Assembly: GCA_964525705.1 (NCBI GenBank)
Contig: CAZGHV010000001.1
Location: forward strand, 1 to 27,076
Direction: 5' to 3'
Source: an uncultured Candidatus Saccharibacteria bacterium
GTDB taxonomy: Bacteria; Patescibacteriota; Dojkabacteria; J137; JAEUSD01
Length of the DNA stretch: 27,076 bases
This document shows positions 350 through 16,680 of the stretch, piece after piece. The notes below the pieces were generated by a model. That model worked only from the letters and a program-made list of their open reading frames with translations. It ran no database searches and had not been told where the DNA came from. Within the stretch, counting starts at the first letter, position 1, and each line of letters starts with the position of its first letter. The position numbers were made by a program, and so were the translations under genes.

Positions 350-356
350 GTGCTAA
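330..356. promoter_or_regulatory. CIRCE-like inverted repeat (HrcA operator) upstream of the Clp ATPase gene
   Basis: Minus strand TTAGCACTT-gacaaagca-GTCTGCTAG versus consensus TTAGCACTC-N9-GAGTGCTAA: 8/9 and 6/9 arm matches with an exact 9-nt spacer, directly upstream of a heat-shock gene. Confidence 0.65.
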
Positions 357-1027
357 GCTGTGCCAGGTTTCCCTATTTCATAAATGAATCCGGGGATCCT
401 CTCTGTCAGAAGTCCGCTGGGTGATAATTCAATAATGTTTAGGTGATAATCGGTGTCGGGCCAAATTAACTTTCCTCCCGGTTTCACTTGCCGTAGGAGG
501 TGTTGTGGTGGAGAGACAAGCGCGTAAGAGATTATTATTGCGTCAAACGGTGCTTTATCTTCCAGACCAAATTGACCGTCACGCAGTAAGAATTCTGTCT
601 TGCCTGCTATAGAGGGATAGTGCTGCAGCCCTTCTCTGGCATGTCTCCAAATCCAATTGATACGTTCCATGGAGAACACTTTTCCGGTATCGCCAGCTAC
701 TTGGGATAAGATTGTGGCCAGGTAGCCACTCCCTGTTCCCAGGTGTAGATATTTCCCTCCATATTTAGGTGCTAGTAGTTGTAAATACTGTGCAACTGTT
801 GTCGGGCTGGACATTTTTTCACCATAACCAAGAGGTATTTGGCTGTCATTATATGCATCATTCTTATGTGTTGCGGGCACAAAATGAATGCGGTCTACTG
901 CTCGAAAGGCATTTAAAAGCAAGGGATCATAAATCACACTTTGCCCTAGCCTGGCTACCAGATGATGATGATCCCAAGTAAATGGCTTGGCACTGCCATA
1001 GGAAGATATATGTGGTGGATTTGACAT
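353..1027 (-). CDS. pcm: Protein-L-isoaspartate O-methyltransferase family protein (divergent), 224 aa
   Basis: AFRAVDRIHFVP...AYNDSQIPLGYG..MSSP, GTGSGY, ER, DG..G...APFDAII, QVKPGGKLIWP follow the PIMT motif order. Start moved from 1339 to ATG 1027: TATAAT lies 6 nt upstream, and the longer version would overlap the divergent giant gene. Confidence 0.85.
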   Translation of the reverse strand: MSNPPHISSYGSAKPFTWDHHHLVARLGQSVIYDPLLLNAFRAVDRIHFVPATHKNDAYNDSQIPLGYGEKMSSPTTVAQYLQLLAPKYGGKYLHLGTGSGYLATILSQVAGDTGKVFSMERINWIWRHAREGLQHYPSIAGKTEFLLRDGQFGLEDKAPFDAIIISYALVSPPQHLLRQVKPGGKLIWPDTDYHLNIIELSPSGLLTERIPGFIYEIGKPGTA

Positions 1028-1033
1028 ATTTAC

Positions 1034-1039
1034 ATTATA
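1034..1039 (-). promoter_or_regulatory. -10 box of probable leaderless pcm promoter
   Basis: TATAAT-gtaaat-ATG on the minus strand. Confidence 0.55.
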
Positions 1040-1090
1040 AACATATCTAGCTGCTGAGTCATTAACATAGCAGAATTCTCTGTGATTATG

Positions 1091-1096
1091 TATCAT
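1091..1096 (+). promoter_or_regulatory. -10 box of probable leaderless promoter for the giant surface-protein gene
   Basis: TATCAT-gtagg-ATG(1102), the same geometry as other genes in the window. Confidence 0.45.
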
Positions 1097-1112
1097 GTAG
1101 GATGTCATTTTT

Positions 1113-4100
1113 TTGAGATTGCGACTTACTTTACGACCGGCAACTTTAAAGAAAACTTTTCTCACTCTGGGTGGTGTACTCCTAGTTTTGATCTTTGCAT
1201 CTGCAGCTTGGCAAACTGCAGACGGCTCAAATATATTGGTGAATTCTGTGCAGGAAGGCTTGTCCATGATCTTGGGGGCAGATAGTGCAGATAAAATATC
1301 CAGAGCCGAGGGAATGAGGTACAGCTTGCTGAGTGACAACTATACTCGATGTCAAGGTAAATTGGGAATTGAACCAGCTGGCGGTAATACCCCAGATGTG
1401 TGGTTACAGAAAAGTGCAAATGATCTCCAAGCTTATCACCAAGCTGGATTACGTTATATTTTAGTTACTGTGCCCAATTTTCAGCAAAGCACAGTGGATA
1501 ATTCGATCAAATTGTTGGTGAAGGCGTACCGTTATCACCTAGTGCCAGTATTTGTTCTGGCGGGTTTTGACAATGGTGTGTTTGGACCAGCAGAATTGGA
1601 AAATCCCACAAACATAGTTGCTTTCTATAATGCAATTAGTACTGGAGCTGGGAATGTACAATTTGTGGCAAGCACTGCACCTAGATATATGGCGGATCAA
1701 GGGAGACTTTTGGAGATGGTAACAGTATCTGTACAGGTCGCAGAAGAGCTAAATAAAGCAATTAATCCTAGCTCTGCAGGGGGTGTGAGTGATTATGATG
1801 CAAACGTGGTTATTGCTACTCCTCCGATTCGTTGGTGGCCGTCAAACATAGGCGAAATCGATTCTTTGACTGCTACAGGATTGACAATGGATGAATTTGA
1901 TATTTTGATGTTGATCGGCCAGAACACTGGCGTGAGAACTTATGAGCAAGCCTACCAGACATATCAATCTGGCAGCTCTGGGTCTCTTATTCGCCAGTTT
2001 AACAGCCAAGAAAGGCTGTTTGCTCGCACAATGTTTGTGGGTTTTGGACCTGCACCAGGCACGCTCACAGGTAAACCACAAACTATTCCATACCCAGAGA
2101 AGGACACATTGTTAAGAATGCGCCTGGAGTATGGATATATCGCCGATGACCCACAGGTGGAAGGTGTGATTCTGAGTGAGCCATTGTTTGGTTCACTATC
2201 AATGGACACTGTTCGCATGATCCATGCCGTAGGAAATAATTGTCCATATGACATCCTTGACTATGATATTCATGAGTACGAAGAAAGGTCTGTGGCTTCT
2301 AGTTGCGCAATATCGCGTTCTTCTATAGACGTCGATCCAGATCGAGATACTGCGATTGCACGCATCGTCTGCGATGCTGATCCAGAGATGCCTACATGTG
2401 AAGGACAATTACTTTGGTCCAGGCAAATAGGTTTGCCTGTGAGGAACTTCTGCTCAAACTCTCCTTCTGGCACAGATGTGAGTATGTATGAGCCTGTGGC
2501 TTCCTACTATGCAGAGCAAACAGATTTCTGGGACCCAGCAACTGGGATATACCCAGATAGTATGGGTTTGTTTGCTGGACGGTTGGTGAGTGCAGATGGT
2601 GGCAAATACACAATTCCTTGCCTGGGCAGCGCAATTAACAATTCGGGAGAGGTGGCAAAGGCTCTATTTTATGGAGCTGTGAGTAGGTGGGCATTGAATT
2701 TAAATCTCCATCCTGCTTCTGCGCGTTGGGTGGTAGCTCAAAAGTGGAATATTGAGGTGGGCACCGGGAATAGTCTGTTTGCCTGGGTGCCTGCAGGTGA
2801 AGAAGAAGTAACAGGGGAGCGTCAACAGGAGCCAGATAGTGCGGTGGTCGCTACCAGGCAAGGCTTCAGGATTGATAATATCCGTGTACTCATAGATGCC
2901 TTTGGGCAATATGATCCAGATTCTCTTAAAGGATACGACTGGGAACAAGGTGTCTGTGGTGGTGCCACCCAAATAAACTCGCGAAATATTATTTATGGTT
3001 CGGAGGAAGCATTGCCTGTGGACATGCAAAAGGAATTCTGGAGGAATACAAAAAATCAAACCTGTTATCATGCTTGGGTTAAAGGAGATTTAGTAAAGGA
3101 GTTTGATGAAGACCCCGTTTTGAGAGCTCAAGCTCTGGCTGCCGGCAGAAATCCTCGCATAAACTGTAGAATGAATGAAAAATACTGGGCGAAGCCAGAT
3201 GAAAATGGTAATGGTGTTGAGCCGGTGGCAGATGGATTGCCTTGTTACTGTGAGGGGACTATGAATCTTGCCTCCGAGTGGGCAATAAGGAACGGAATGT
3301 GTACTTTATCAGATATTCAGATAGATTATGGTTGTATTACCTACATAGGAGGAGCGCATGCCTCGGAGGCAGATGTAGCGGCCGGTATCTCAAATTATGG
3401 TGCTTCTGTTGTGTTTCTGGAAAACTCTCGTCCAGAGGCAGGGATTGAGGAGTTTGACATTGAGGGAGCTTATGATGCCATTGCGGGACTTTACAAGACA
3501 GTACAAGATAAAATGGCAGAAAGGAATCTGCGGCTCATTTTTAACGAGAAGCTTAACTGGCGTGGGGAAGTGATGGTGCGGGCCTATGCAAAACCATATC
3601 TCACATTTTTTGAGGATAAACCATATAAGCCCTATACTCCGAGAACAAACCGTGCCCGGTCTCTCTCTTTGGCGATGCAGGGTGTGGGGGTAGCTGGGAC
3701 AATTTTGGGGGAGCAGACTTCTGTGGAGGAACAGTTGCGCAATGCAGCTTCTGTCTTGGGTAGTGCTAGTGCTGTTTGTAAAATAGGCGTAAATTTTGCA
3801 TCCACGTACTCTGGAGTAGGACAGGACAAGATAAACGAGGCCGGCGAGATAGGCTACTCCTATGGACAGATAATTGTACTTGGACCTGGTGATAGTGCAG
3901 CTGGAGTCGGAGCTACCATGTCCACTATGTGTAATGCAGGCATTGTCCCTGTAGTCAGGTCTTGCGTTATAGGTACTTGTGGATTTACTAGTGGTGCAGA
4001 CCAGGCTGCTTTTTTGAGCTCTATTCCGATTCCAGATGCTTGTGGTGAAGTGTACATGACTTGTGGACATAATGAGCCCAATACAGAGTATCCCGATTTT

Positions 4101-6881
4101 TTTGCAGAAGGACAATGGGCAAGGGAGTGTGCTACCCAGATCGATCGTAAAGGTGGGAAAGTAAAAGTAACCACTCCGATTTGGAACTCTACTTATGATA
4201 ACTTTCTGAAAGACATGCCACCGTTCTTTGACGGGTTTGGCGCTTGGGATCCTAGCCTATTTGAGTGTGTGGCGTTTAACACATATGACAACGTGGGCGG
4301 TCGTACGGCAGATACATTTTACGATCGAGTGTTTTCCTTGAGTCAGTTCTCGGGTATGGAAGCTTGCATTATGGAAACCGGAGTTTATCAAGGTGAGAAC
4401 ACTACGGCAAGTATTCGGGAATTACTGTGGAGGCTCACGGCAAAATCAAATCTATTGTTTCTACTTGGATTTAACTGGACGAATACAAATCCAGACTGGC
4501 AACATTTTGCTTTACCAGACCTGGGTGTAGAGGTTGTGGGTGAGTATTGTGACGGTCGGATATTGCCTGGAGGTCCAAGTAATGGAGGCAAAATACCATT
4601 TGAAACATACCCGCAATATGCAGCGGGGTTCTACCAAGCCGAGGGTGATCATTCGCAACTTTATTACCATTATTATGAGTATTTGGGAGTAATAGATGAA
4701 CTTACTAGAGCATTATCATTGCTTACAGATAGTCAGCTACCTGCTGGCGGATACGATGACAGCGGTGACCCTGTATCCGACCTAGCTGAGCAGTTTGCTG
4801 GCTGGACAGTTTGTGGGACAAAAGAACACCGTGAAGCGGAAGCTGCGGCAGGAGATGCAGTTAATTGCATCGGTACTTTAGTGGATGAGGATCCCTTGGG
4901 AAGCTTTCTTTGTGGAAAGGGCTATCCTGTGTATCACACTTGTGCTCCAGAGAATTATCAAGATGAGCCAAAGTGTGAGGTTGTGCCTCCGCAAAGTAAG
5001 TTGTCAAGCTTGCATTCTTTACAGCAATTGGATCCCGACTTGGTTTCAATGACGGAGAAGATAGAAAGGTTGATGTGTCTTAACCCAGGCGTCTTGCTGG
5101 CAATGCTTGAGCGCGAGATCACTGCTCGACTTCCAGAACTCACAGGCGATCCTTTCCAGCAGGTTTATGCACGTAAAGATGCGAGTCAGGAAGTGTGGGG
5201 ACCGGCACAGATACACAATATTTCTTGGATAGGCGGTGGGTATGGAGTAATAGGTAGTGATGAATTTGAAGGTGTGAAGAATCGTTTTGCAACTGGAATT
5301 TGTCTTCGCCAAATGGGTATCCCCTATGCAGAACCTATACCTGGTTGGTATCAAGATGGCATGGTGTCTAGTGGCATTTTGGAGAGGTCATATGTGGGAT
5401 ACGCTTTGTGTGGTGCAGCGGCTATACTCAAAGATAACTCTGGTACAGGCGAGAAATGTGCTAGCTGGACAAAAGAGGAAATATATAAAGCGGCAGAAAG
5501 ATATTTGGGTGCTTGTAGTCAAAATGGTAGAGAATACTGCTCTGTTTATGTGGAAACTATATGTAATCTATACCCAGAAGCAAATGCAGAAATGTGCTCT
5601 CAGCTGGGTGATATTGATGATGAGTGTCTAGAGCGCATTGATGATCCAAACGAGATTTGTGCAGATGGGCAAATCCGCTTGCTCCACCCATTACGCAATG
5701 CCGATGCTGCAGTTACTCAGCCCTATGGAGGTGACTATAATCACTCTGGAGTAGACTATCGTGCTGGTGTAGGTACCCCGGTATTTGCAGCAGCTGCCGG
5801 TATTGTCACCAATGTGGAAAGTGGATGGAGTCCAGGAACTACTACAATATCTGCAAGTGCCGGGAACTTTGTGAAGATTGAGCACAATTCTGGAGCAAGA
5901 ACCTTCTGGACAAACTATCAGCACTTAAGTAGTGTGGAAGTGCGAGTGGGGGACACTGTTCGTGTGGGTCAACTCATAGGTTACAGCGGCAATACAGGTA
6001 GAAGCAGCGGTCCACACTTGCACTTTGAACTGCGACTTGTGGACTGCTATGATGGCTACAATGAGACTGAATATGAGTTCGGCTCCTGCAGCGCAGATCC
6101 TGTACCCTTCATTTTATCTGAGGAAGAAATAGCCGCTTGTGCAGATACTTCAAAATCTCCTCCGATTGCAGCTGGTGATGAAGTTTGCCCACTGGAGGAT
6201 GTTTCCGGAGCGATTATTATCCAAACATCCACGGATAAGGGTGGATCTCATGAACGTGATGATGTTTCCCCACAGAAAGCAACAGACATTCAGGCACCAG
6301 GGCATATAGTTGTTGCACCTGTGGCAGGTACTGTCCGGGTTGTAAACCCGGTTGAAACCGTGGCGCAGTTCGGTGATGGTATATGTGATTACATAAGATT
6401 GCCCGATCACAATCCAAGTAACGACTTGGAGATAAATTGGAAAGTAATAGAGGCCCAAGGTATGGTAGAAACTCCTTCCGGCTCTGGGATATTTAGGGGT
6501 GGTTTATACAAGTATGAGTCGTTTATAGATGATGAGGGGGATTATTATTATGATGGAGGCTTTGTGGTATTAATCACAGATAAAGCAGGCAGACTGTGGA
6601 GGCTGGTGCATCTTGAACCTTTGGAAGGCAAAAGTGAGCTAGAGGTAAAGACTGGAGACACTGTGGAACCAGGTGATAGGATCGGGAGGATTTATGATGG
6701 TACGCTGGCAGGTACCTGGGCAGATTGGAGCGTAAAGCCTAGTGATGGATCTGGCTGTTTCAACGTATCGGCGGAACATATGCATTTTGCAATCATCAGT
6801 GCCAATGCTGTGGATGACCCTATTTATACTGGTAATAATATAGATTCAACCTCTTGGGTGCGGGAGCACTGTGGTCTGTAA
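1113..6881 (+). CDS. Giant (1922 aa) N-terminally anchored, Cys-rich multidomain glycan/peptidoglycan hydrolase: degenerate GH-A barrel, unknown region, GH-A barrel, SLT/lysozyme-like domain, two M23 peptidases
   Basis: Basic N-terminus plus TM helix (TFLTLGGVLLVLIFASAAW). HNEP (E988) and IMETG (E1088) form a clan GH-A catalytic pair. LNPGVLLAMLERE...WGPAQI...AAERYLG...YVETI is an SLT-like pattern. HSGVD...HLHF is M23 no. 1; H-x11-D...HL...HMHF is M23 no. 2. Start is uncertain (TTG 1113, or out-of-frame ATG 1102). Confidence 0.85.
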   Translation: MRLRLTLRPATLKKTFLTLGGVLLVLIFASAAWQTADGSNILVNSVQEGLSMILGADSADKISRAEGMRYSLLSDNYTRCQGKLGIEPAGGNTPDVWLQKSANDLQAYHQAGLRYILVTVPNFQQSTVDNSIKLLVKAYRYHLVPVFVLAGFDNGVFGPAELENPTNIVAFYNAISTGAGNVQFVASTAPRYMADQGRLLEMVTVSVQVAEELNKAINPSSAGGVSDYDANVVIATPPIRWWPSNIGEIDSLTATGLTMDEFDILMLIGQNTGVRTYEQAYQTYQSGSSGSLIRQFNSQERLFARTMFVGFGPAPGTLTGKPQTIPYPEKDTLLRMRLEYGYIADDPQVEGVILSEPLFGSLSMDTVRMIHAVGNNCPYDILDYDIHEYEERSVASSCAISRSSIDVDPDRDTAIARIVCDADPEMPTCEGQLLWSRQIGLPVRNFCSNSPSGTDVSMYEPVASYYAEQTDFWDPATGIYPDSMGLFAGRLVSADGGKYTIPCLGSAINNSGEVAKALFYGAVSRWALNLNLHPASARWVVAQKWNIEVGTGNSLFAWVPAGEEEVTGERQQEPDSAVVATRQGFRIDNIRVLIDAFGQYDPDSLKGYDWEQGVCGGATQINSRNIIYGSEEALPVDMQKEFWRNTKNQTCYHAWVKGDLVKEFDEDPVLRAQALAAGRNPRINCRMNEKYWAKPDENGNGVEPVADGLPCYCEGTMNLASEWAIRNGMCTLSDIQIDYGCITYIGGAHASEADVAAGISNYGASVVFLENSRPEAGIEEFDIEGAYDAIAGLYKTVQDKMAERNLRLIFNEKLNWRGEVMVRAYAKPYLTFFEDKPYKPYTPRTNRARSLSLAMQGVGVAGTILGEQTSVEEQLRNAASVLGSASAVCKIGVNFASTYSGVGQDKINEAGEIGYSYGQIIVLGPGDSAAGVGATMSTMCNAGIVPVVRSCVIGTCGFTSGADQAAFLSSIPIPDACGEVYMTCGHNEPNTEYPDFFAEGQWARECATQIDRKGGKVKVTTPIWNSTYDNFLKDMPPFFDGFGAWDPSLFECVAFNTYDNVGGRTADTFYDRVFSLSQFSGMEACIMETGVYQGENTTASIRELLWRLTAKSNLLFLLGFNWTNTNPDWQHFALPDLGVEVVGEYCDGRILPGGPSNGGKIPFETYPQYAAGFYQAEGDHSQLYYHYYEYLGVIDELTRALSLLTDSQLPAGGYDDSGDPVSDLAEQFAGWTVCGTKEHREAEAAAGDAVNCIGTLVDEDPLGSFLCGKGYPVYHTCAPENYQDEPKCEVVPPQSKLSSLHSLQQLDPDLVSMTEKIERLMCLNPGVLLAMLEREITARLPELTGDPFQQVYARKDASQEVWGPAQIHNISWIGGGYGVIGSDEFEGVKNRFATGICLRQMGIPYAEPIPGWYQDGMVSSGILERSYVGYALCGAAAILKDNSGTGEKCASWTKEEIYKAAERYLGACSQNGREYCSVYVETICNLYPEANAEMCSQLGDIDDECLERIDDPNEICADGQIRLLHPLRNADAAVTQPYGGDYNHSGVDYRAGVGTPVFAAAAGIVTNVESGWSPGTTTISASAGNFVKIEHNSGARTFWTNYQHLSSVEVRVGDTVRVGQLIGYSGNTGRSSGPHLHFELRLVDCYDGYNETEYEFGSCSADPVPFILSEEEIAACADTSKSPPIAAGDEVCPLEDVSGAIIIQTSTDKGGSHERDDVSPQKATDIQAPGHIVVAPVAGTVRVVNPVETVAQFGDGICDYIRLPDHNPSNDLEINWKVIEAQGMVETPSGSGIFRGGLYKYESFIDDEGDYYYDGGFVVLITDKAGRLWRLVHLEPLEGKSELEVKTGDTVEPGDRIGRIYDGTLAGTWADWSVKPSDGSGCFNVSAEHMHFAIISANAVDDPIYTGNNIDSTSWVREHCGL

Positions 6882-7605: not shown

Positions 7606-7659
7606 GGATAAATGCATTCATATTTGGTCCCCCTGTTGGTTGTCTCTACTCATTGTGCC

Positions 7660-7668
7660 TGTTAAAAT
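7660..7668 (+). promoter_or_regulatory. Extended -10 promoter for proS
   Basis: TGtTAAAAT, 10 nt upstream of ATG 7679. Confidence 0.5.
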
Positions 7669-7678
7669 CGGCAGTTAT

Positions 7679-9124
7679 ATGCAAAAAGAAGATAAAAAAG
7701 CACTCCCACCACGTTCTGTAGACCAGTCTGAATGGTATACGCAAGTAATTATGCGTGCGAAACTTGCAGATTACTCTCCAGTGAGAGGCTGCATGGTAAT
7801 TCGCCCCTATGGATACGCTATTTGGGAACGAATACAAGAAGTAATGAATAAAAAAATAAAGGCTATGGGTGTGAATAATGCCTATTTCCCACTTTTTATC
7901 CCCTACTCTTTTTTACAAAGGGAACAAGACCATGTAGAAGGGTTTGCCCCAGAGGTGGCATTGCTTACTCGTGTGGGAGACAAAGAGCTTGAGGAGCCTT
8001 TGGTAGTACGTCCAACATCGGAAACTATAATCTATGAGATGTTTAAAGACTGGGTGCAATCATATCGTGATTTGCCACTAAAGATAAATCAATGGTGTAA
8101 TGTTGTTCGCTGGGAAAAACGCACAACTCCTTTTTTGCGTACCACAGAGTTTTTATGGCAAGAGGGACACACCGCACATGTAAGCAGGGATGAAGCAGAG
8201 AAAATGGTGGCAGAGGCATTGGAGATGTACTCTACATTTGCTTCCGAATACCTGGCTATTTACTCTATCCCCGGTCGCAAAACAGAGGCTGAGAAATTTG
8301 CGGGTGCAGAGTATACTACCACATTTGAGTGTATGATGAGAGACCGCAAGGCTTTGCAGAGTGGCACTTCTCATCTTTTGGGGCAAAATTTTGCGCGGGC
8401 ATTTGGATTGGAGTTTGTGGGAGAAGATCACCAAATGCATTACGCCTGGACTACTAGCTGGGGGCTCAGTACTAGGATAATCGGCGCAATTATTCTCACG
8501 CATGGTGATGACAAAGGGTTGATACTTCCTCCCCAGATTGCACCAGTCCAGGTGGTAATCGTTCCTATTTTTAAGAATGAGAACAAATCAGAAGTATTCG
8601 ACTATTGTGAAAAAGTGCAGGCACAGCTGGAAAATCTTAATATACGATCTGAATTTGATACCAGCGATAATTCACCTGGTTGGAAATTTGCTGAGGGAGA
8701 AATGCGTGGAATCCCATTGCGAGTGGAAGTAGGCAGTAAAGACATTGCAGCTCAAGTACTGACAGTGGTGAAGAGAAACGATGGCCATAAACGGCAAGTG
8801 CCATTGACCGAGATTTCGGAAGTGATCCCAGAGTTGCTAGAGCTAATACAGGCTGAAATGTTACAGAGCGCAAAAGAGTTTACACAGCAGAATACTAGGC
8901 GGGTAGATAGCTATGATGAATTTAAGCAGTTGGTTAATTCTACTGATGAACCCCTGGGGTTTATTGAGGCTTTTTTCTCTGGAGAGAAAGTGCTGGAAGC
9001 CCAGATAAAAGAAGAGACAAAATACACTACCAGATGTGTGCCGTTTGCAACTGAAACTGAAAGTGGTAGCTGCTTCATGAGTGGGAAGCCAGGGAAGCTG
9101 ACAATTTTTGGGAAAGCTTACTAA
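7679..9124 (+). CDS. proS: Proline--tRNA ligase, eukaryote/archaea (Thermus)-type, no INS editing domain, 481 aa
   Basis: WYTQVI..A.LADYSPVRGCMVIRPYG, RPTSET, QWCNVVRWE, FLRTTEFLWQEGHT, LQSGTSHLLGQNFARAF, TSWGLSTR, C-terminal GKAY. Start set at ATG 7679. Confidence 0.97.
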   Translation: MQKEDKKALPPRSVDQSEWYTQVIMRAKLADYSPVRGCMVIRPYGYAIWERIQEVMNKKIKAMGVNNAYFPLFIPYSFLQREQDHVEGFAPEVALLTRVGDKELEEPLVVRPTSETIIYEMFKDWVQSYRDLPLKINQWCNVVRWEKRTTPFLRTTEFLWQEGHTAHVSRDEAEKMVAEALEMYSTFASEYLAIYSIPGRKTEAEKFAGAEYTTTFECMMRDRKALQSGTSHLLGQNFARAFGLEFVGEDHQMHYAWTTSWGLSTRIIGAIILTHGDDKGLILPPQIAPVQVVIVPIFKNENKSEVFDYCEKVQAQLENLNIRSEFDTSDNSPGWKFAEGEMRGIPLRVEVGSKDIAAQVLTVVKRNDGHKRQVPLTEISEVIPELLELIQAEMLQSAKEFTQQNTRRVDSYDEFKQLVNSTDEPLGFIEAFFSGEKVLEAQIKEETKYTTRCVPFATETESGSCFMSGKPGKLTIFGKAY

Positions 9125-12775: not shown

Positions 12776-13816
12776 CTAATACTCCTCAGTGTAGTATGGG
12801 TATTCTCCACCCAAGTCTAGCATTTCTTCTGTGGGCATCATAAACCCACCCAGTAGTTCTGTGAGGTCAAGACTTCCAGTTGGGACCTCGATGGTTACCT
12901 CAGCTGGAGCCTTCTCTTTGATAAAAATCGACACTTCACCACTTGTGGTACCATCTGCAATTTGTGAAGAGACAAATACAGGCAACATGTTCTCTCCCTG
13001 TGTGCAAATCTCCAGGTTGTCTATTACGATACTTCCCTGTTCGACCTCCATAGATTCATCTATGGCAATGTCTACCAGCATACAGCTTAATGTCATACCT
13101 TCTACAGTTCTGCTTTCTGTTATCCTGCCATTGCTGAATATTGGTTTCTGTTGTAGCTTCTGCAAGGTTTCCTCTGCTTCCGTAGCGTCTACAGTAACTC
13201 CGGTGAGTTCTGTTGCTTGCGTTACATCAAGTTTGAGCCATGTCCCCAAGAAAACATTTACAAAATCCATATCTCCCAACTCTGCTGCCAGTTCCGAGGG
13301 CAAATCATCAACTCTGAAGAACACTTTATTGTCTATATATTTCATTTGACCCGCAAGTTGGCTAGTACCAGAAGCTTCTGTAATATCTGCAGATATATCT
13401 GCCTGCCAATCATATTGACCTTGGGGGTTCTGTTTGCCCATTCCTGCCACATTTATCACTGCATCTGTGGTTGTATCTTCTGTGGAAATAGTTATTGTGA
13501 AGGCAATACTTTCTGCACCTTCAGGCTGTAATTCATTGTCGAACAATTCTAAGGTGTCAAGTCCCGACGGATCATTTGTACCAGCTTTCACTGCATCATA
13601 TACAAACTGATTGAGCTGATCCACTGCTTGCTGTGGCTGTGAGGCATCAACTAGCAGATTGCCCGCTGAACTCTGAATGCCACTTTTTGTGTTGGAATTC
13701 AAAACTAGCGCAATGCCAATTCCCCCAACTATTAGTAGTGCTACGGCTGCAGCCACAATTACCATAAGTTTTTTGTTTTTCCCGGAATTAGTTTCTTGTT
13801 TGTTTTCTGTCTCCAC
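12776..13816 (-). CDS. Single-pass membrane-anchored hypothetical protein (possible LppX/LprAFG-like beta-sheet fold), 346 aa
   Basis: K-rich N-terminus plus TM helix (LMVIVAAAVALLIVGGIGIALVL), followed by a beta-rich acidic domain with MKYIDNKVFFR...GTWLKLD. The fold call is tentative. GTG start. Confidence 0.7.
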   Translation of the reverse strand: METENKQETNSGKNKKLMVIVAAAVALLIVGGIGIALVLNSNTKSGIQSSAGNLLVDASQPQQAVDQLNQFVYDAVKAGTNDPSGLDTLELFDNELQPEGAESIAFTITISTEDTTTDAVINVAGMGKQNPQGQYDWQADISADITEASGTSQLAGQMKYIDNKVFFRVDDLPSELAAELGDMDFVNVFLGTWLKLDVTQATELTGVTVDATEAEETLQKLQQKPIFSNGRITESRTVEGMTLSCMLVDIAIDESMEVEQGSIVIDNLEICTQGENMLPVFVSSQIADGTTSGEVSIFIKEKAPAEVTIEVPTGSLDLTELLGGFMMPTEEMLDLGGEYPYYTEEY

Positions 13817-13938: not shown

Positions 13939-15843
13939 TTACTTGCATATTGCAGCTGTTTTAGCCTCGCAAGCTGTAATTAGGTCATTTCCCGCCATAG
14001 ACATTGATTCAGTCCGCAGCCCGCAGCTAAAAGAAACAAGCGCTTTGTGCAAGATGCTTTCATCTGCAAAAACTTGCAAATTTAATATATTACCAAATGG
14101 GGGAACCCCGCCTATCTGCAGACCGTAATGTTGTTGTATTTTTTCTGGCTGCTCCATCGCTAGCTTCTCACCAGCAAGCTCCTCAACAGATTTAATATTC
14201 AGTTTGTTGCTGCCAGGTAGAATGGCGATCACGTTCTTCCCAGTCTTTTTGCCTACAAGTATTAACGATTTCACTATTGACTCTGGACTTTCTCCACTCA
14301 CCCGCATTGCATCTTTGACCGCAGAAGCTTCCTCATGCTGCATATGGGTGAAATCAATATCCCTGCTTTTAAGTAACTGGATGATTGCATTGCGCATGTC
14401 TTCACCGTTCTTAATTTGGGGAAGAGTTACTTTGATACCTAGCTCTTCCAATTGCTCATTTGTAACTGCTGCCGGAGCTTCCATCACTGCTACTTTCCCG
14501 CTACCGGTCATAGGGAAGGCAATGGCCTCTTTGAGGGAGGATTCACCGGCGAGCAGCATAACTAGCCTGTCCAGCCCGAGGGCAATGCCGCCATGGGGGG
14601 GAGTCCCGGTTGCAAACGCTTCTAGCATATGGCCGATACTCTCTTGAATTTCTGTTTCGGAGTAACCCATTATGGTTAGTGTTTGTTTCAGGATTTCTGG
14701 GCGATGAGCTCGAATACTGCCTCCACCTACCTCAAACCCGTTACATACAAGATCGTACTGTGTTGTGAGTATTTGCTCAACGTTTTCTCCAGCCATGTGC
14801 TGCTCTAGGTGCTGCTGCTTTGGCATGCTGAAGGGATTGTGTGTAAATGTCCAGCCACTTTTACTATCACGTACTTCTGCTGTATCCTTCTTGTCTACTC
14901 TTTTGAAGAATGGGAAATCTATTACCCATGCAAATGCTAGCAATCCAGCTTCCTTCTCTTCTGGGGTACGTAAGTCAAATTTATCTGCACCATACTTGCT
15001 CACGGCTTCTGCATAGGTAATTACAGGGAAGTCGGAATCACGCATTTTGCCGCCTACTGCTGTAACTGCAGATTTCACAACTTGCTCAACAAGAGAGCGA
15101 ATCTCTACCTCATCTGAGAAGCTCATCTCCAAGTCCAGCTGAGTGAACTCAAACCCACGATCTGCACGCAAATCTTCATCCCGAATACAACGAGCTACTT
15201 GGAAGTAGCGATTGATGCCGGCTGTCATCAGCAGTTGTTTATATTGTTGGGGGCTTTGAGGGAGAGCATAGAATTTTCCAGGATTAAACCTTGAAGGTAC
15301 AATAAAATCTCGCGCACCTTCTTTTGTTGATTTTGTGAGCATTGGTGTTTCGATCTCCACGAAATCCTTTGCATACAAGTTGTTCCTCAAATGGCGAATG
15401 AATTCAGAGCGCATACGCATGATGGTATTCATTCTCGGGCGTCGCAAATCCAAGTAACGGTACTTAAGGCGTGTTTCTTCATTTATGTCGTGCCCGTCCC
15501 CTTTTACAGGCAGGGGTAAGTTTGTGGCTGGGTTTAGTACTATAAAATCGCTGGACGAATCCAAGACTAGCTCGAGATTCCCTGTAGCTATCTCCGAATT
15601 AACATTTTCTGGGGCACGTTCTTGCAAGACGCCACTCACTTCCACAACTGATTCTAATGGTGTTCGTTTCATCTCTGGGATACCGCTCCCCACACATTGG
15701 ATTAGTCCAGTATGATCTCGGATATCAAGAAATGTGAGCTGACCGTGGTCTCTTCTGGAGTCTATCCAGCCCTTAATTTGAATACGGCTCCCTCGCTCTT
15801 CTTTCAATAAATCTGCTACCAAAACTCTAGTATTGTGGTTCAT
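13939..15843 (-). CDS. aspS: Aspartate--tRNA ligase (bacterial type, GAD domain absent) fused to a C-terminal YbaK/ProXp-family domain, 634 aa
   Basis: GWIDSRRDHGQLTFLDIRD, RLKYRYLDLRR, EIETPMLTKST.EGARDF, ALPQSPQQYKQLLM, FQVARCIRDEDLRADR..EFTQLDLEMSF, HNPFS, GGGSIR, PPHGGIALGLDR. The last ~150 aa carry IVKSLIL and GGVPPFG. Start at ATG 15843. Confidence 0.97.
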   Translation of the reverse strand: MNHNTRVLVADLLKEERGSRIQIKGWIDSRRDHGQLTFLDIRDHTGLIQCVGSGIPEMKRTPLESVVEVSGVLQERAPENVNSEIATGNLELVLDSSSDFIVLNPATNLPLPVKGDGHDINEETRLKYRYLDLRRPRMNTIMRMRSEFIRHLRNNLYAKDFVEIETPMLTKSTKEGARDFIVPSRFNPGKFYALPQSPQQYKQLLMTAGINRYFQVARCIRDEDLRADRGFEFTQLDLEMSFSDEVEIRSLVEQVVKSAVTAVGGKMRDSDFPVITYAEAVSKYGADKFDLRTPEEKEAGLLAFAWVIDFPFFKRVDKKDTAEVRDSKSGWTFTHNPFSMPKQQHLEQHMAGENVEQILTTQYDLVCNGFEVGGGSIRAHRPEILKQTLTIMGYSETEIQESIGHMLEAFATGTPPHGGIALGLDRLVMLLAGESSLKEAIAFPMTGSGKVAVMEAPAAVTNEQLEELGIKVTLPQIKNGEDMRNAIIQLLKSRDIDFTHMQHEEASAVKDAMRVSGESPESIVKSLILVGKKTGKNVIAILPGSNKLNIKSVEELAGEKLAMEQPEKIQQHYGLQIGGVPPFGNILNLQVFADESILHKALVSFSCGLRTESMSMAGNDLITACEAKTAAICK

Positions 15844-15869
15844 TTGCAAGTAATTAATATCTAATTATT

Positions 15870-16050
15870 CTACATAAAAAGCGACCCACGAGTAATCTAT
15901 ACCCAAGGGTCGCTTTGCGACGGTACCACCTTAATTCCGGTATTAACCGGCTCTTAGCTTTTATATAGTTCTTTTAGTCACTTAGCTTTATGGTCTTTCA
16001 GTTTCACCATTTGCTGTCTTGCGAATTTTACTCAATTACTAAGTTTAGGT
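15870..16050 (-). ncRNA. T-box riboswitch (tRNA-sensing leader) upstream of aspS
   Basis: Antiterminator AAGG-UGGUACC-GUCGC-AAA-GCGAC-CCUU (15905-15932), with a mutually exclusive terminator and a stem III hairpin CCGG-UUAAUA-CCGG (15937-15950). An AGACAGC...CUGAAA hairpin (15990-16020) resembles distal stem I. Candidate Asp specifier GAC at 15977-15979. The 5' boundary is uncertain. Confidence 0.85.
15876..15916 (-). terminator. Intrinsic terminator of the T-box leader
   Basis: AAAGCGACCC-(19 nt, partly paired)-GGGUCGCUUU followed by further Us. It shares GCGACCC with the antiterminator. Confidence 0.85.
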
Positions 16051-16092
16051 CAAATCTCTTTGGAATCGACCTGGAGCCTCTTCATTCGCCAT
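16045..16092 (-). CDS. Possible 15-aa small ORF (MANEEAPGRFQRDLT) at the 5' end of the aspS leader
   Basis: AGGAG-atattt-ATG, the clearest SD-like site I found in the window's 5' regions. It may instead be part of T-box stem I. Confidence 0.25.
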   Translation of the reverse strand: MANEEAPGRFQRDLT

Positions 16093-16108
16093 AAATATCT
16101 CCTATTGA

Positions 16109-16117
16109 TGATAGAAT
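16109..16117 (+). promoter_or_regulatory. Extended -10, probable leaderless promoter for the thermonuclease gene
   Basis: TGaTAGAAT-aattt-GTG(16123). Confidence 0.55.
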
Positions 16118-16122
16118 AATTT

Positions 16123-16680
16123 GTGAATTATGTAAAATCTCTGGGTAAATTGCTCCACTTTCGCCAGTCAGATCCCTGGTGGTATGTGCTGGGTGTATTC
16201 ATTCTTATTGTTTGCTTGGCAGTTATACCCTGGTCTCCGCTAGCTATGTTACCGGTTGGTGATGGTGACTATGCTGTGATACGTGTTATAGATGGTGATA
16301 CTATTGAAGTGATGGATAACGCTGGTGCTGAGCTGAAAGTACGGTTGATTGGAATTGATACTCCAGAATTGGCACAGGCTGGGAAAGCCGCTGAGTGCTT
16401 TGCGGACGAGGCAAAAAGCCAAATTACTTTGCTGTTATATGGTCAGATAGTAGAATTGCGCTCTGATCCTACACAGGCGGACAGAGATAGATATGACCGG
16501 TTGTTGCGTTATGTAATTTCGAAAGATGGGTCAAATGTAAACTTGGAAATGATCAGGGAAGGTTTTGCTTATGAATTTACCTACGACGAACCATATCTTT
16601 ATCAAACAGAGTTTAAACTAGCTGCCCAAAGTGCTCAGGCGCTCAATCTGGGCTTGTGGCGTGAGTGTATAGCTAAATAG
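16123..16680 (+). CDS. Membrane-anchored thermonuclease (SNase-like), 185 aa
   Basis: TM helix, then VIRVIDGDTIEV, VRLIGIDTPE, CFADEAK, DRYDRLLRYV, VNLEMIREGFA, A..AQ...GLW. Confidence 0.93.
   Translation: MNYVKSLGKLLHFRQSDPWWYVLGVFILIVCLAVIPWSPLAMLPVGDGDYAVIRVIDGDTIEVMDNAGAELKVRLIGIDTPELAQAGKAAECFADEAKSQITLLLYGQIVELRSDPTQADRDRYDRLLRYVISKDGSNVNLEMIREGFAYEFTYDEPYLYQTEFKLAAQSAQALNLGLWRECIAK

What the first reader, a model, noticed from the sequence alone, without database searches (positions are those of the whole stretch)
13939..14400. AspRS carries a C-terminal YbaK/ProXp editing domain while the nearby ProRS has none
Seen: after the AspRS C-terminus the frame continues about 150 aa, with the conserved Lys (IVKSL, 14269-71) and GGVPPFG loop (14092-14112). 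proS, 4.8 kb away, is the INS-less type. Established: INS-superfamily domains (YbaK, ProXp-ala/x/y/z) deacylate mischarged tRNAs and are normally free-standing or part of ProRS; AspRS has no cis-editing domain. Inference: either a trans-editor for Ala/Cys-tRNA(Pro) now expressed under Asp T-box control, or a new proofreading activity on tRNA(Asp/Asn).
Basis: partly seen in the sequence, partly recalled or inferred. Interest (0 to 1): 0.8.

Follow-up and report, generated by a model that had tools for sequence, protein, structure and literature searches.

The report
AspRS fused to YeaK-like deacylase
This aspartyl-tRNA synthetase really does carry a C-terminal tRNA-proofreading domain with its catalytic motif intact, a fusion found across many tiny-genome bacteria and archaea, but the domain is the YeaK type rather than the proline-linked YbaK type and its target is untested.

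Summary
ORF 13939-15849 (-) encodes a bacterial-type AspRS without the GAD insertion, then a low-confidence linker of about 25 residues, then a 155-residue INS-superfamily (PF04073) domain. The domain keeps the catalytic Lys (K527) and the GXXXP loop (G580-P584).

It is not an assembly artefact. 117 of the 120 best homologues share the architecture (Dojkabacteria/WS6, Microgenomates). GAD-containing AspRS-edit fusions of about 744 aa are common in MAGs labelled Woesearchaeota/Nanoarchaeota.

- The family profile is closest to E. coli YeaK/ProXp-ST1 (113.7 bits) and PDB 3OP6 (101.6). YbaK scores 64 and ProXp-ala 49.
- One fused relative sits 2.3 kb from an INS-containing ProRS, so the fusion does not track INS-less ProRS.
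- The same domain also occurs free-standing just downstream of aspS, and fused to a DD-carboxypeptidase or to RuvX.
- Fused and unfused AspRS interleave within well-supported clades.

Best reading: an autonomous deacylase module that fused to its neighbour gene aspS and acts largely in trans. Dedicated proofreading of tRNA(Asp/Asn) is not excluded. A T-box-like leader is present but scores below Rfam's threshold, and its specifier codon is unresolved. I found no description of this fusion in the searchable literature.

The parts
13939..15849 (-). Whole aspS-edit fusion ORF (636 aa from TTG; probable ATG start at 15843; stop codon at 13939-13941)
14488..15849 (-). AspRS body, residues 1-454: OB anticodon-binding domain (24-82) and class IIb catalytic core (123-448). 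Bacterial type without the GAD insertion.
   Evidence: Pfam and NCBIfam. AF2 pLDDT is mostly above 85. Asp-recognition motifs (QSPQ, PPHGG, GLDR) are invariant in alignment A1.
14410..14487 (-). C-terminal AspRS extension and linker, residues 455-480: a low-confidence, poorly conserved tether
   Evidence: AF2 block pLDDT is 47-60. Mean column identity is 0.52 against 0.73 for the core. The spacing L470-L493 is 16-27 residues across homologues.
13942..14409 (-). INS-superfamily (PF04073, YbaK-fold) aminoacyl-tRNA deacylase domain, residues 481-636, of the YeaK/ProXp-ST1-like branch
   Evidence: AF2 of the domain alone gives pLDDT 94.2. Foldseek TM-scores are 0.82-0.86 to 1WDV, 2CX5 and YbaK.
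14269..14271 (-). Catalytic-type lysine K527 (IVKSL)
   Evidence: Invariant in 29 fused domains (A2 position K48). Also conserved in the Woesearchaeota fusions.
14098..14112 (-). GXXXP loop G580-G-V-P-P584 (within GGVPPFG, 14092-14112)
   Evidence: G101 and P105 of A2 are invariant. The motif is defined in PMC11286415.
15876..16090 (-). T-box-like leader of aspS: candidate Stem I at 16020-16089, Stem III, T-box core GGUGGUACC at 15922-15930, and terminator arms 15907-15913 / 15881-15887 followed by a T-run at 15876-15880
   Evidence: Rfam RF00230 matches 15905-15967 only (model positions 147-216), 29.7 bits, E 4e-5, below the gathering score of 93. Sequence read. Comparable leaders occur in relatives L087 and L027.
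16108..16136 (-). Sigma-70-like promoter match (TTTACA-17-TATCAT) just upstream of the leader
   Evidence: This is a consensus match only, and the count in the region is no higher than in shuffled sequence.
7640..9124 (+). proS, archaeal/eukaryote-like ProRS without the INS editing domain.
   Evidence: TIGR00408 at 595 bits; Pfam tRNA-synt_2b + HGTP_anticodon + ProRS-C_1

Best explanation
The gene encodes a genuine, evolutionarily maintained fusion. It consists of a canonical bacterial-type AspRS without the GAD insertion, a flexible tether of about 25 residues, and a catalytically intact aminoacyl-tRNA deacylase domain of the INS superfamily. The domain's family is closest to YeaK/ProXp-ST1, the broad-specificity Ser/Thr-tRNA deacylase.

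Shown:
- the architecture
- conservation of the catalytic Lys and the GXXXP loop
- the family placement
- the wide distribution of the fusion
- the variety of arrangements around aspS

Inferred:
- The domain works as an autonomous hydrolytic module. It clears mischarged tRNAs mostly in trans, most likely those carrying small neutral or hydroxylated residues of the Ser/Thr type, after they are released from whichever synthetase made them.
- It became fused to AspRS because its gene sat next to aspS in tightly packed genomes.
- The fusion gives co-expression, here behind a T-box-like attenuator, and perhaps stability. It is not a new AspRS-specific sieve.
- It is not a replacement for the missing ProRS INS domain.
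For: Architecture and folding.

Catalytic motif:
- Invariant L14, H26, K48, G101, P105, F128 and G131 across 29 fused domains that are only 21-51% identical to the window's domain.
- The same motifs are conserved in 110 Woesearchaeota fusion domains.

Family placement:
- The A2 profile scores E. coli YeaK at 113.7 bits against YbaK at 64.0.
- Against the PDB it scores 3OP6 at 101.6, 1WDV 75, 2CX5 69.5, YbaK 64, ProXp-ala 49 and ProRS INS 38/24.
- hhalign of A2 against YeaK gives probability 99.7, E 3e-27.

Autonomy of the module:
- In an exhaustive search, 103 of the 150 best 50%-identity representatives are free-standing proteins of 150-175 aa, and 23 are AspRS fusions.
- The same domain is fused to Peptidase_S11 behind a TM helix (P0281, P0293), to RuvX (P0310), or repeated three times in one protein (P0177, P0178).
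- It is free-standing 88 nt downstream of aspS in L060.
- It is encoded divergently from aspS in L085.

Dispensability:
- Fused and unfused AspRS interleave. Clades with 60/60 bootstrap contain both states.
- Close unfused relatives have no edit gene within the roughly 6 kb fetched on each side.

Independence from ProRS type: L089 has an INS-containing ProRS beside the fusion.

Flexible tether: residues 455-480 have pLDDT below 60, pTM is 0.66, and linker length varies.
Against: - No activity has been measured.
- The window's own domain is a divergent member. On its own it scores only 30.6 bits to YeaK, against 45-55 bits to ProXp-x-like proteins and 1WDV. Its placement in the YeaK-like branch rests on its nearest relatives: 180 bits to a subfamily-A profile built without it, and 117 bits to subfamily B.
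- The window's domain has lost the nearly invariant T510/S511 and the N of the FN.G motif.
- The NJ tree of the domain is unresolved.
- The edit gene is found beside or inside aspS in four different arrangements, in both Patescibacteria and DPANN archaea. That recurrence could reflect a functional tie to AspRS rather than mere neighbourhood.
- I had no reference sequences for ProXp-ST2 or ProXp-7/8/9.
Confidence: 0.5

Rival explanations
1. Dedicated proofreading for AspRS products. The tethered domain resamples tRNA(Asp) or tRNA(Asn) as it leaves the AspRS active site. It hydrolyses a non-cognate product and spares Asp-tRNA(Asp). Candidate substrates are Ser/Thr/Asn- or beta-hydroxy-Asp- or D-Asp-tRNA(Asp), or un-amidated Asp-tRNA(Asn). 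That would make AspRS a new editing synthetase.
For: - The edit gene is persistently linked to aspS. It is fused to GAD-less AspRS, fused to GAD-containing AspRS in a bacterial locus (L087) and in about 110 Woesearchaeota clusters, immediately downstream of aspS (L060, L073), and divergent from aspS (L085).
- The Woesearchaeota fusion lies about 5 kb from gatC/gatA/gatB.
- Two fused loci have T-box specifier loops that read AAC+A (Asn) rather than GAC. This hints at non-discriminating AspRS in those lineages.
- The spacing between AspRS and the domain is mostly 18-22 residues.
Against: - From general knowledge, AspRS has no known misacylation problem.
- Its Asp-binding motifs are canonical and invariant here.
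- The domain is lost repeatedly within well-supported AspRS clades.
- The same domain is also fused to unrelated neighbours, Peptidase_S11 and RuvX.
- The Dojkabacteria-like relative L088 encodes an AsnRS 1 kb away, so an Asp-tRNA(Asn) role is not general.
- No fixed docking is predicted.
Confidence: 0.25
2. The domain is a YbaK/ProXp-ala-type trans-editor that clears Ala- or Cys-tRNA(Pro) made by the INS-less ProRS encoded 4.8 kb away.
For: - ProRS in the window lacks INS.
- The L088 relative also has an INS-less ProRS about 5 kb from the fusion.
- The window's domain on its own is about as similar to ProXp-x-like proteins and 2CX5 as to anything else. ProXp-x has weak Ala-tRNA(Pro) activity according to PMC11295145.
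Against: - The domain is far below the YbaK equivalog cut-offs.
- ProXp-ala is the most distant free-standing INS family: 49 bits to the family profile, and 13 bits (E 0.95) to the window alone.
- The family profile clearly prefers YeaK and 3OP6.
- The fused relative L089 already has an INS-containing ProRS.
- Many close relatives have no fused domain and no edit gene near aspS. Their ProRS type was not determined.
Confidence: 0.08
3. The domain has lost catalysis and serves as a tRNA-binding or structural appendage. It might, for example, compensate for the missing GAD domain.
For: - The window's AspRS lacks GAD.
- The window's domain deviates at two nearly invariant positions and in the FN.G motif.
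- Domain sequence evolves much faster than the core: 21-51% identity against about 63-68%.
Against: - K527 and the GXXXP loop are strictly invariant, including in the window.
- GAD-containing AspRS carry the same domain, so it is not a GAD substitute.
- The predicted fold is complete and confident, with pLDDT 94.
Confidence: 0.07
4. Assembly or frameshift artefact. Two separate genes are joined by a missing stop codon.
For: None beyond the a priori possibility. Split versions of the two genes do exist in other lineages (L060, L073).
Against: 117 of 120 homologues from independent assemblies are fused in frame, with an alignable junction. 13 GTDB species representatives are fused.
Confidence: 0.01

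Closest known systems
YeaK / ProXp-ST1 (E. coli b1787), free-standing Ser/Thr-tRNA deacylase of the INS superfamily
   Same: It gives the best family-level similarity: 113.7 bits, and hhalign probability 99.7. It shares the signature motifs HE..T.E.A..RGT....GAKAL, G.(V/I)PPF and AFNAG. The Lys and the GXXXP loop are conserved.
   Different: YeaK is a single-domain protein, whereas here the domain is the C-terminus of AspRS. The window's own copy is divergent (30.6 bits to YeaK alone). Activity and substrate are untested.
PDB 3OP6 (Legionella pneumophila lpg1207, uncharacterised 'oligonucleotide-binding protein')
   Same: It is the best solved-structure match to the fused-domain family profile, at 101.6 bits and E 3e-28.
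   Different: It is free-standing and has no assigned function. It is structurally less close to the window's model (TM 0.71-0.75) than 1WDV, 2CX5 or YbaK.
ProXp-ala-ProRS fusions of protists and fungi, and the INS domain of bacterial ProRS
   Same: In both, an INS-superfamily deacylase is covalently joined to a class II synthetase. Fusion was reported to enhance deacylation in T. brucei ProRS (PMC11286415).
   Different: In those cases the partner is ProRS, the enzyme that makes the error, and the domain is N-terminal or inserted. Here the partner is AspRS, which has no known error to correct, and the domain belongs to a different INS family.
ProXp-x (T. thermophilus TTHA1699, PDB 2CX5) and APE2540 (1WDV)
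   Same: These are the top single-sequence and structural matches of the window's own domain: 45-48 bits and TM 0.83-0.86. They share the IVKSL and GGVPP words.
   Different: The fused family as a whole scores them lower (69-75 bits) than YeaK or 3OP6. They lack the HE and FN.G signatures that the window's domain retains.
AspRS-GatC bifunctional fusion (NCBIfam NF009460)
   Same: It is a precedent for a C-terminal accessory module on bacterial AspRS. It appears as a partial hit.
   Different: There the appended module is GatC of the amidotransferase, not a deacylase. The window scores 379 bits against a cut-off of 1379, so it is not a member.

Membership tests
Bacterial-type aspartate--tRNA ligase (NF001750 / TIGR00459) | Whole-protein score above the curated equivalog cut-off | tested here: met
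   572.9 bits against 443, and 506.8 against 373.85
Bacterial-type aspartate--tRNA ligase (NF001750 / TIGR00459) | GAD insertion domain within the catalytic core | tested here: not met
   There is no PF02938 hit. The HMM match is split into two stretches. Relatives P0199 and P0211 do have GAD.
INS superfamily (PF04073 tRNA_edit, YbaK fold) | Pfam domain above the gathering score, and the YbaK-like fold | tested here: met
   75.2 bits against 25.5. AF2 pLDDT is 94, and Foldseek TM is 0.82-0.86 to 1WDV, 2CX5, 1DBU and 2DXA.
INS superfamily (PF04073 tRNA_edit, YbaK fold) | Conserved catalytic Lys and GXXXP loop (as defined in PMC11286415) | tested here: met
   K527 and G580-P584 are invariant in 29 fused domains and conserved in 110 Woesearchaeota fusion domains
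INS superfamily (PF04073 tRNA_edit, YbaK fold) | Hydrolysis of mischarged aminoacyl-tRNA | not testable with these tools
   Needs deacylation assays
YbaK proper (Cys-tRNA(Pro) deacylase; TIGR00011, PRK10670) | Score above the equivalog cut-off | tested here: not met
   68.7-73.3 bits against 153.25, and 37-41 against 243
[quoted passage not shown] | Closest similarity to ProXp-ala references (5VXB, 1VJF, 8HUZ) | tested here: not met
   49, 49 and 36 bits to the family profile. 13 bits, E 0.95, to the window alone. TM 0.62-0.75.
YeaK / ProXp-ST1 | Higher sequence similarity to YeaK than to other INS families | tested here: inconclusive
   Met for the fused family (113.7 against at most 101.6 bits) and for subfamily B (123 bits). 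Not met for the window's sequence alone (30.6 bits) or for its subfamily-A profile (YeaK 61.5, roughly equal to ProXp-x-like 61). ProXp-ST2 and ProXp-7/8/9 references were unavailable.
YeaK / ProXp-ST1 | Free-standing single-domain protein | tested here: not met
   It is fused to the AspRS C-terminus
YeaK / ProXp-ST1 | Ser-/Thr-tRNA deacylase with broad tRNA specificity | not testable with these tools
   The activity is known from Liu et al. 2015, as summarised in PMC11295145
T-box leader (Rfam RF00230) | Score at or above the gathering threshold, with Stem I and a specifier codon | tested here: not met
   29.7 bits against 93, and only model positions 147-216 are matched. The specifier was not identified.
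T-box leader (Rfam RF00230) | T-box sequence in an antiterminator that competes with an intrinsic terminator upstream of an aaRS gene | tested here: met
   AAGGUGGUACCGUCGC at 15922-15932 is followed by GCGACCC...GGGUCGC-UUUUU, 27 nt upstream of the ORF

The most novel reading that the evidence does not exclude
AspRS of many Patescibacteria and DPANN Woesearchaeota is a previously unrecognised editing synthetase. In this reading the tethered YeaK-like domain proofreads what AspRS itself puts on tRNA(Asp) or tRNA(Asn), for example a neutral or hydroxylated Asp analogue, Asn, D-Asp or stray Asp-tRNA(Asn). That would add a class IIb enzyme to the seven synthetase families known to edit. It would also tie the trait to the scavenging lifestyle of ultra-small symbionts.
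Probability: 0.22. Interest if true: 0.85.

Novelty: new variant of a known kind. Interest (0 to 1): 0.6.

Why it matters
Recent reviews list seven synthetase families with editing domains. They describe INS-superfamily deacylases as single-domain proteins, except when joined to ProRS or, in plants, extended by a C-terminal domain. AspRS is not on either list.

Here an intact deacylase domain is welded to AspRS in more than a hundred sequence clusters in each of two groups: Patescibacteria, and MAGs labelled Woesearchaeota/Nanoarchaeota. Both groups have the smallest genomes and depend most on scavenged amino acids.

If the module is a general trans-editor, the fusion gives an accessible, naturally tagged entry point for studying how minimal cells keep translation accurate. 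If it proofreads AspRS products, it reveals a new editing synthetase and an unknown error source at Asp/Asn codons.

There is also a practical consequence. These proteins are currently annotated only as 'aspartate--tRNA ligase', and the second activity is overlooked.

Tried and rejected
- **Single-sequence search with the domain.** It found only 56 proteins, biased to ProXp-x-like sequences that share the words IVKSL and GGVPP. The exhaustive profile search replaced it.
- **NJ tree of 213 domain sequences.** Deep nodes had about 0% bootstrap. I used it only to see that the fused domains are not one tight clade.
- **Structural comparison.** All INS families match with TM 0.7-0.86, so it cannot assign a subfamily.
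- **Rfam at gathering threshold.** It found no T-box in the window or in 8 fused relatives. Only E-value mode showed partial or weak T-boxes.
- **Window's T-box specifier.** I could not read it from the Stem I fold (z-score -1.6). The three Dojkabacteria-like fused relatives whose loci I fetched (L088-L090) have no T-box motif to compare.
- **Idea that a free ybaK-like gene sits next to aspS in the unfused relatives P0090 and P0097.** Rejected.
- **Idea that the fusion compensates for GAD loss.** Rejected, because GAD-containing fusions exist.
- **The listing of cluster members.** It gave almost no names.
- **Primary papers.** Those on ProXp-ST1/2, ProXp-x and FthB are not held, so pocket residues that set specificity could not be compared.
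- **Paper searches.** Nine searches found no description of an AspRS-INS-superfamily fusion.
Full report
**1. Observation**

The minus strand carries one open frame from 15849 to 13939 (636 aa from a TTG). The identical database protein P0001 is 634 aa, so translation probably starts at the ATG at 15843.

Pfam places three domains:
- an OB anticodon-binding domain at residues 24-82
- the class IIb catalytic core at 123-448 (E 7e-107)
- a tRNA_edit domain (PF04073) at 505-625 (E 6e-21)

NCBIfam names the body a bacterial-type aspartate--tRNA ligase (572.9 bits, cut-off 443). The match is in two stretches and there is no GAD domain, so this is a GAD-less bacterial AspRS. The tail matches YbaK_EbsC end to end (residues 490-635) at only 68.7 bits.

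The Lys of IVKSL is 14269-14271, and GGVPPFG is 14092-14112. The ORF at 7640-9124 is a family-I (archaeal/eukaryote-like) ProRS without INS (595 bits). It lies 4.8 kb from the aspS stop.

**2. The fusion is real and widespread**

- 117 of the 120 best database homologues (50-64% identity) have the same three Pfam domains in a single protein of about 620 aa. Where named, they come from Dojkabacteria/WS6, Beckwith- and Woesebacteria, and 'Patescibacteria group'.
- Their junctions align without frameshifts.
- Among 80 GTDB species representatives with the closest AspRS, 13 are fused, including Roizman- and Chisholmbacteria.
- A second set of fusions has the GAD domain and is about 744 aa. One lies in a bacterial-looking locus with a T-box and an S11 peptidase gene (L087).
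- In a search seeded with P0211, 111 of 119 close clusters carry the domain. Many are labelled Candidatus Woesearchaeota or Nanoarchaeota.
- In one of those contigs the neighbours include Translin and a TFIIB-type zinc ribbon. gatC, gatA and gatB lie about 5 kb downstream.

**3. Is the domain intact?**

- Across 29 fused domains that are only 21-51% identical to the window's, seven columns are invariant: L493, H505, K527, G580, P584, F607 and G610 in ORF numbering.
- K527 and G580-x-x-x-P584 are the lysine and GXXXP loop that the literature gives as the shared catalytic apparatus of the INS superfamily (PMC11286415).
- The same motifs are conserved in the Woesearchaeota set.
- AlphaFold2 models the domain alone at pLDDT 94.2. 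Foldseek matches every solved INS-superfamily member (TM 0.86 to 1WDV, 0.83 to 2CX5, 0.82-0.84 to YbaK, 0.71-0.75 to 3OP6).
- In the full-length model (pLDDT 86.1, pTM 0.66), residues 455-480 fall below pLDDT 60. This stretch is poorly conserved, and the spacing between the last conserved AspRS residue and the first domain helix varies from 16 to 27 residues.
- The picture is two folded units on a flexible tether. No docked arrangement is predicted for the monomer.

**4. Which INS family?**

- The window's domain alone gives weak, non-discriminating hits: 1WDV 48 bits, 2CX5 45, YbaK 40, 3OP6 32, ProXp-ala 13.
- A profile of the fused family is much clearer: 3OP6 101.6, 1WDV 75, 2CX5 69.5, YbaK 64, Atu3699 60, ProXp-ala 49, ProRS INS 38/24.
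- With the same HMM, E. coli YeaK (ProXp-ST1), taken from the K-12 record, scores 113.7 bits against 64.0 for E. coli YbaK. hhalign gives probability 99.7.
- The shared signature is visible by eye: HE.V.TSEEA..VRGT....GAKAL, G.(V/I)PPFG and AFNAG. It is especially close in the Woesearchaeota consensus.

The fused domains split into two groups:
- A larger subfamily B, which is clearly YeaK-like (123 bits).
- A Dojkabacteria-like subfamily A that includes the window. Its profile is roughly equidistant from YeaK (61.5), 3OP6 (64) and ProXp-x-like proteins (61).

The window nevertheless scores 180 bits to subfamily A (built without it) and 117 bits to subfamily B. Free-standing proteins form a continuum between the two groups. 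I therefore place the window's domain in the YeaK-like branch through its relatives, and flag it as a divergent member. It has lost the nearly invariant T510/S511 and has FSCG in place of FN.G. It fails the YbaK equivalog cut-offs and is furthest from ProXp-ala. I had no reference sequences for ProXp-ST2 or ProXp-7/8/9.

**5. Context that bears on mechanism**

An exhaustive HMM search found 12,253 relatives. Of the 150 best 50%-identity representatives:
- 103 are free-standing proteins of 150-175 aa
- 23 are AspRS fusions
- 3 are tandem repeats of the domain
- the rest carry other extensions

One free-standing relative, P0182, sits among unrelated genes.

Around aspS the module appears in several arrangements:
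- fused to AspRS
- free-standing 88 nt downstream (L060), or a few hundred nt downstream (L073)
- transcribed divergently from aspS and fused to a membrane-anchored Peptidase_S11 (P0281)
- fused to RuvX (P0310)

Where the domain is absent, Peptidase_S11 can directly follow aspS (L002). It also follows the GAD-type fusion in L087.

In an NJ tree of the AspRS core, fused and unfused enzymes interleave, including inside clades with 60/60 bootstrap. The domain has therefore been gained or lost repeatedly.

- L089 has a fusion 54% identical to the window's. It lies 2.3 kb from a bacterial ProRS that contains INS (606 bits, cut-off 558).
- L088 has an AsnRS (501 bits) 1 kb downstream of the fusion, and an INS-less ProRS 5 kb away.

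**6. Interpretation**

The facts favour an autonomous deacylase module. It keeps its catalytic residues whatever it is attached to, it is dispensable in many lineages, and it is independent of ProRS type. It probably fused to AspRS because the two genes were neighbours in compact genomes.

By homology, the likeliest substrates are Ser/Thr-type mischarged tRNAs, as for ProXp-ST1 (activity summarised in PMC11295145). The divergence of the window's copy makes that uncertain.

The main rival is that the repeated association with aspS reflects a real functional coupling to tRNA(Asp/Asn). That association holds in bacteria and archaea, with and without GAD, near gatCAB in one case, and behind Asn-type T-box specifiers in two cases. 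I give the rival about one chance in four. A non-catalytic role or an artefact is very unlikely.

**7. The T-box claim**

Rfam finds nothing at its curated threshold. In E-value mode it aligns 15905-15967 (-) to the 3' third of the T-box model (29.7 bits, E 4e-5). That stretch covers Stem III and the core AAGGUGGUACCGUCGC, and an obvious terminator follows (GCGACCC...GGGUCGC-UUUUU) just upstream of the start codon. A promoter-like match lies at 16136-16108.

Relatives L087 and L027 have full-length but sub-threshold T-boxes with an ultrashort Stem I. Read by eye, the specifier loops are:
- GAC+A in four fused and several unfused loci
- AAC+A in L027 and L087

I could not assign the window's specifier. 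T-box control is plausible, but 'Asp' is not demonstrated.

**8. Novelty**

Nine full-text searches found no description of an AspRS-INS-superfamily fusion. Two 2024 papers, a review and a research article, describe INS-superfamily members as single-domain, apart from ProRS-linked cases and the plant CTD. Other unusual synthetase fusions in WS6 and Microgenomates have been reported (PMC5370408). The proteins are public but annotated only as aspartate--tRNA ligase. I rate this a new variant of a known kind.

Noticed in passing
window 15876-16090 (-); L087:5652-5807; L027:7697-7936; also L005, L017, L018, L026, L002/L007, L045, L065, L084 upstream of aspS: Patescibacterial aspS genes often carry sub-threshold T-box leaders with an ultrashort Stem I. 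Read by eye, the terminal specifier loop is GAC+A (Asp) in most. It is AAC+A (Asn) in L027 and L087, both fused AspRS, and possibly AAC+G in L014. That would imply tRNA(Asn)-responsive, non-discriminating AspRS in those lineages. The window's leader has a longer, atypical Stem I, and its specifier is unresolved.
   Followed up: partly
P0211 and about 110 related clusters; L091:10001-12235: Bacterial-type, GAD-containing AspRS fused to the same YeaK-like domain is common in MAGs labelled Woesearchaeota/Nanoarchaeota (DPANN archaea). In L091 it lies about 5 kb from gatC, gatA and gatB. This suggests either CPR-DPANN gene transfer or convergence.
   Followed up: partly
P0281, P0293 (L085:5309-6769, L086:1986-3446); P0310; P0177, P0178, P0185: The same deacylase domain is fused N-terminally to a TM helix plus a Peptidase_S11 (DD-carboxypeptidase) encoded divergently from aspS. 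It is also fused to a RuvX/YqgF-like protein, and it occurs as two or three tandem copies in one protein.
   Followed up: partly
window 14488-15849 (-): The AspRS is bacterial-type but lacks the GAD insertion domain that is normally present in bacterial AspRS. Its close relatives are the same, while other fused relatives keep GAD.
   Followed up: partly
window 14317-14335 and 14020-14031 (-): The window's copy of the domain deviates from otherwise nearly invariant positions of the fused family. It reads HEEASAV instead of HE.V.TS (T510A, S511V) and FSCG instead of FN.G. The catalytic Lys and the GXXXP loop are kept.
   Followed up: partly
window 1113-6881 (+): A 1922-aa ORF whose only Pfam hit is a Peptidase_M23 domain at residues 1543-1641. 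It is probably a giant surface or cell-wall protein typical of CPR bacteria.
   Followed up: no
window 353-1339 (-): A 328-aa ORF with a protein-L-isoaspartate O-methyltransferase (PCMT) domain at residues 126-294, preceded by an unassigned N-terminal extension of about 125 residues. It overlaps the start of the 1922-aa ORF on the other strand.
   Followed up: no
window 12776-13816 (-): The gene downstream of aspS-edit encodes a 346-aa protein with an N-terminal TM segment and no Pfam family. In several relatives this position is taken by a Peptidase_S11 gene.
   Followed up: no
L088:8879-10195 and L090:11103-11934: In two Dojkabacteria-like relatives a second class IIb synthetase gene lies a few kb from the AspRS-edit fusion. 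The L088 gene was confirmed as asnS at 501 bits (cut-off 414); the L090 gene was identified only by its Pfam domains. The window itself shows no asnS.
   Followed up: partly
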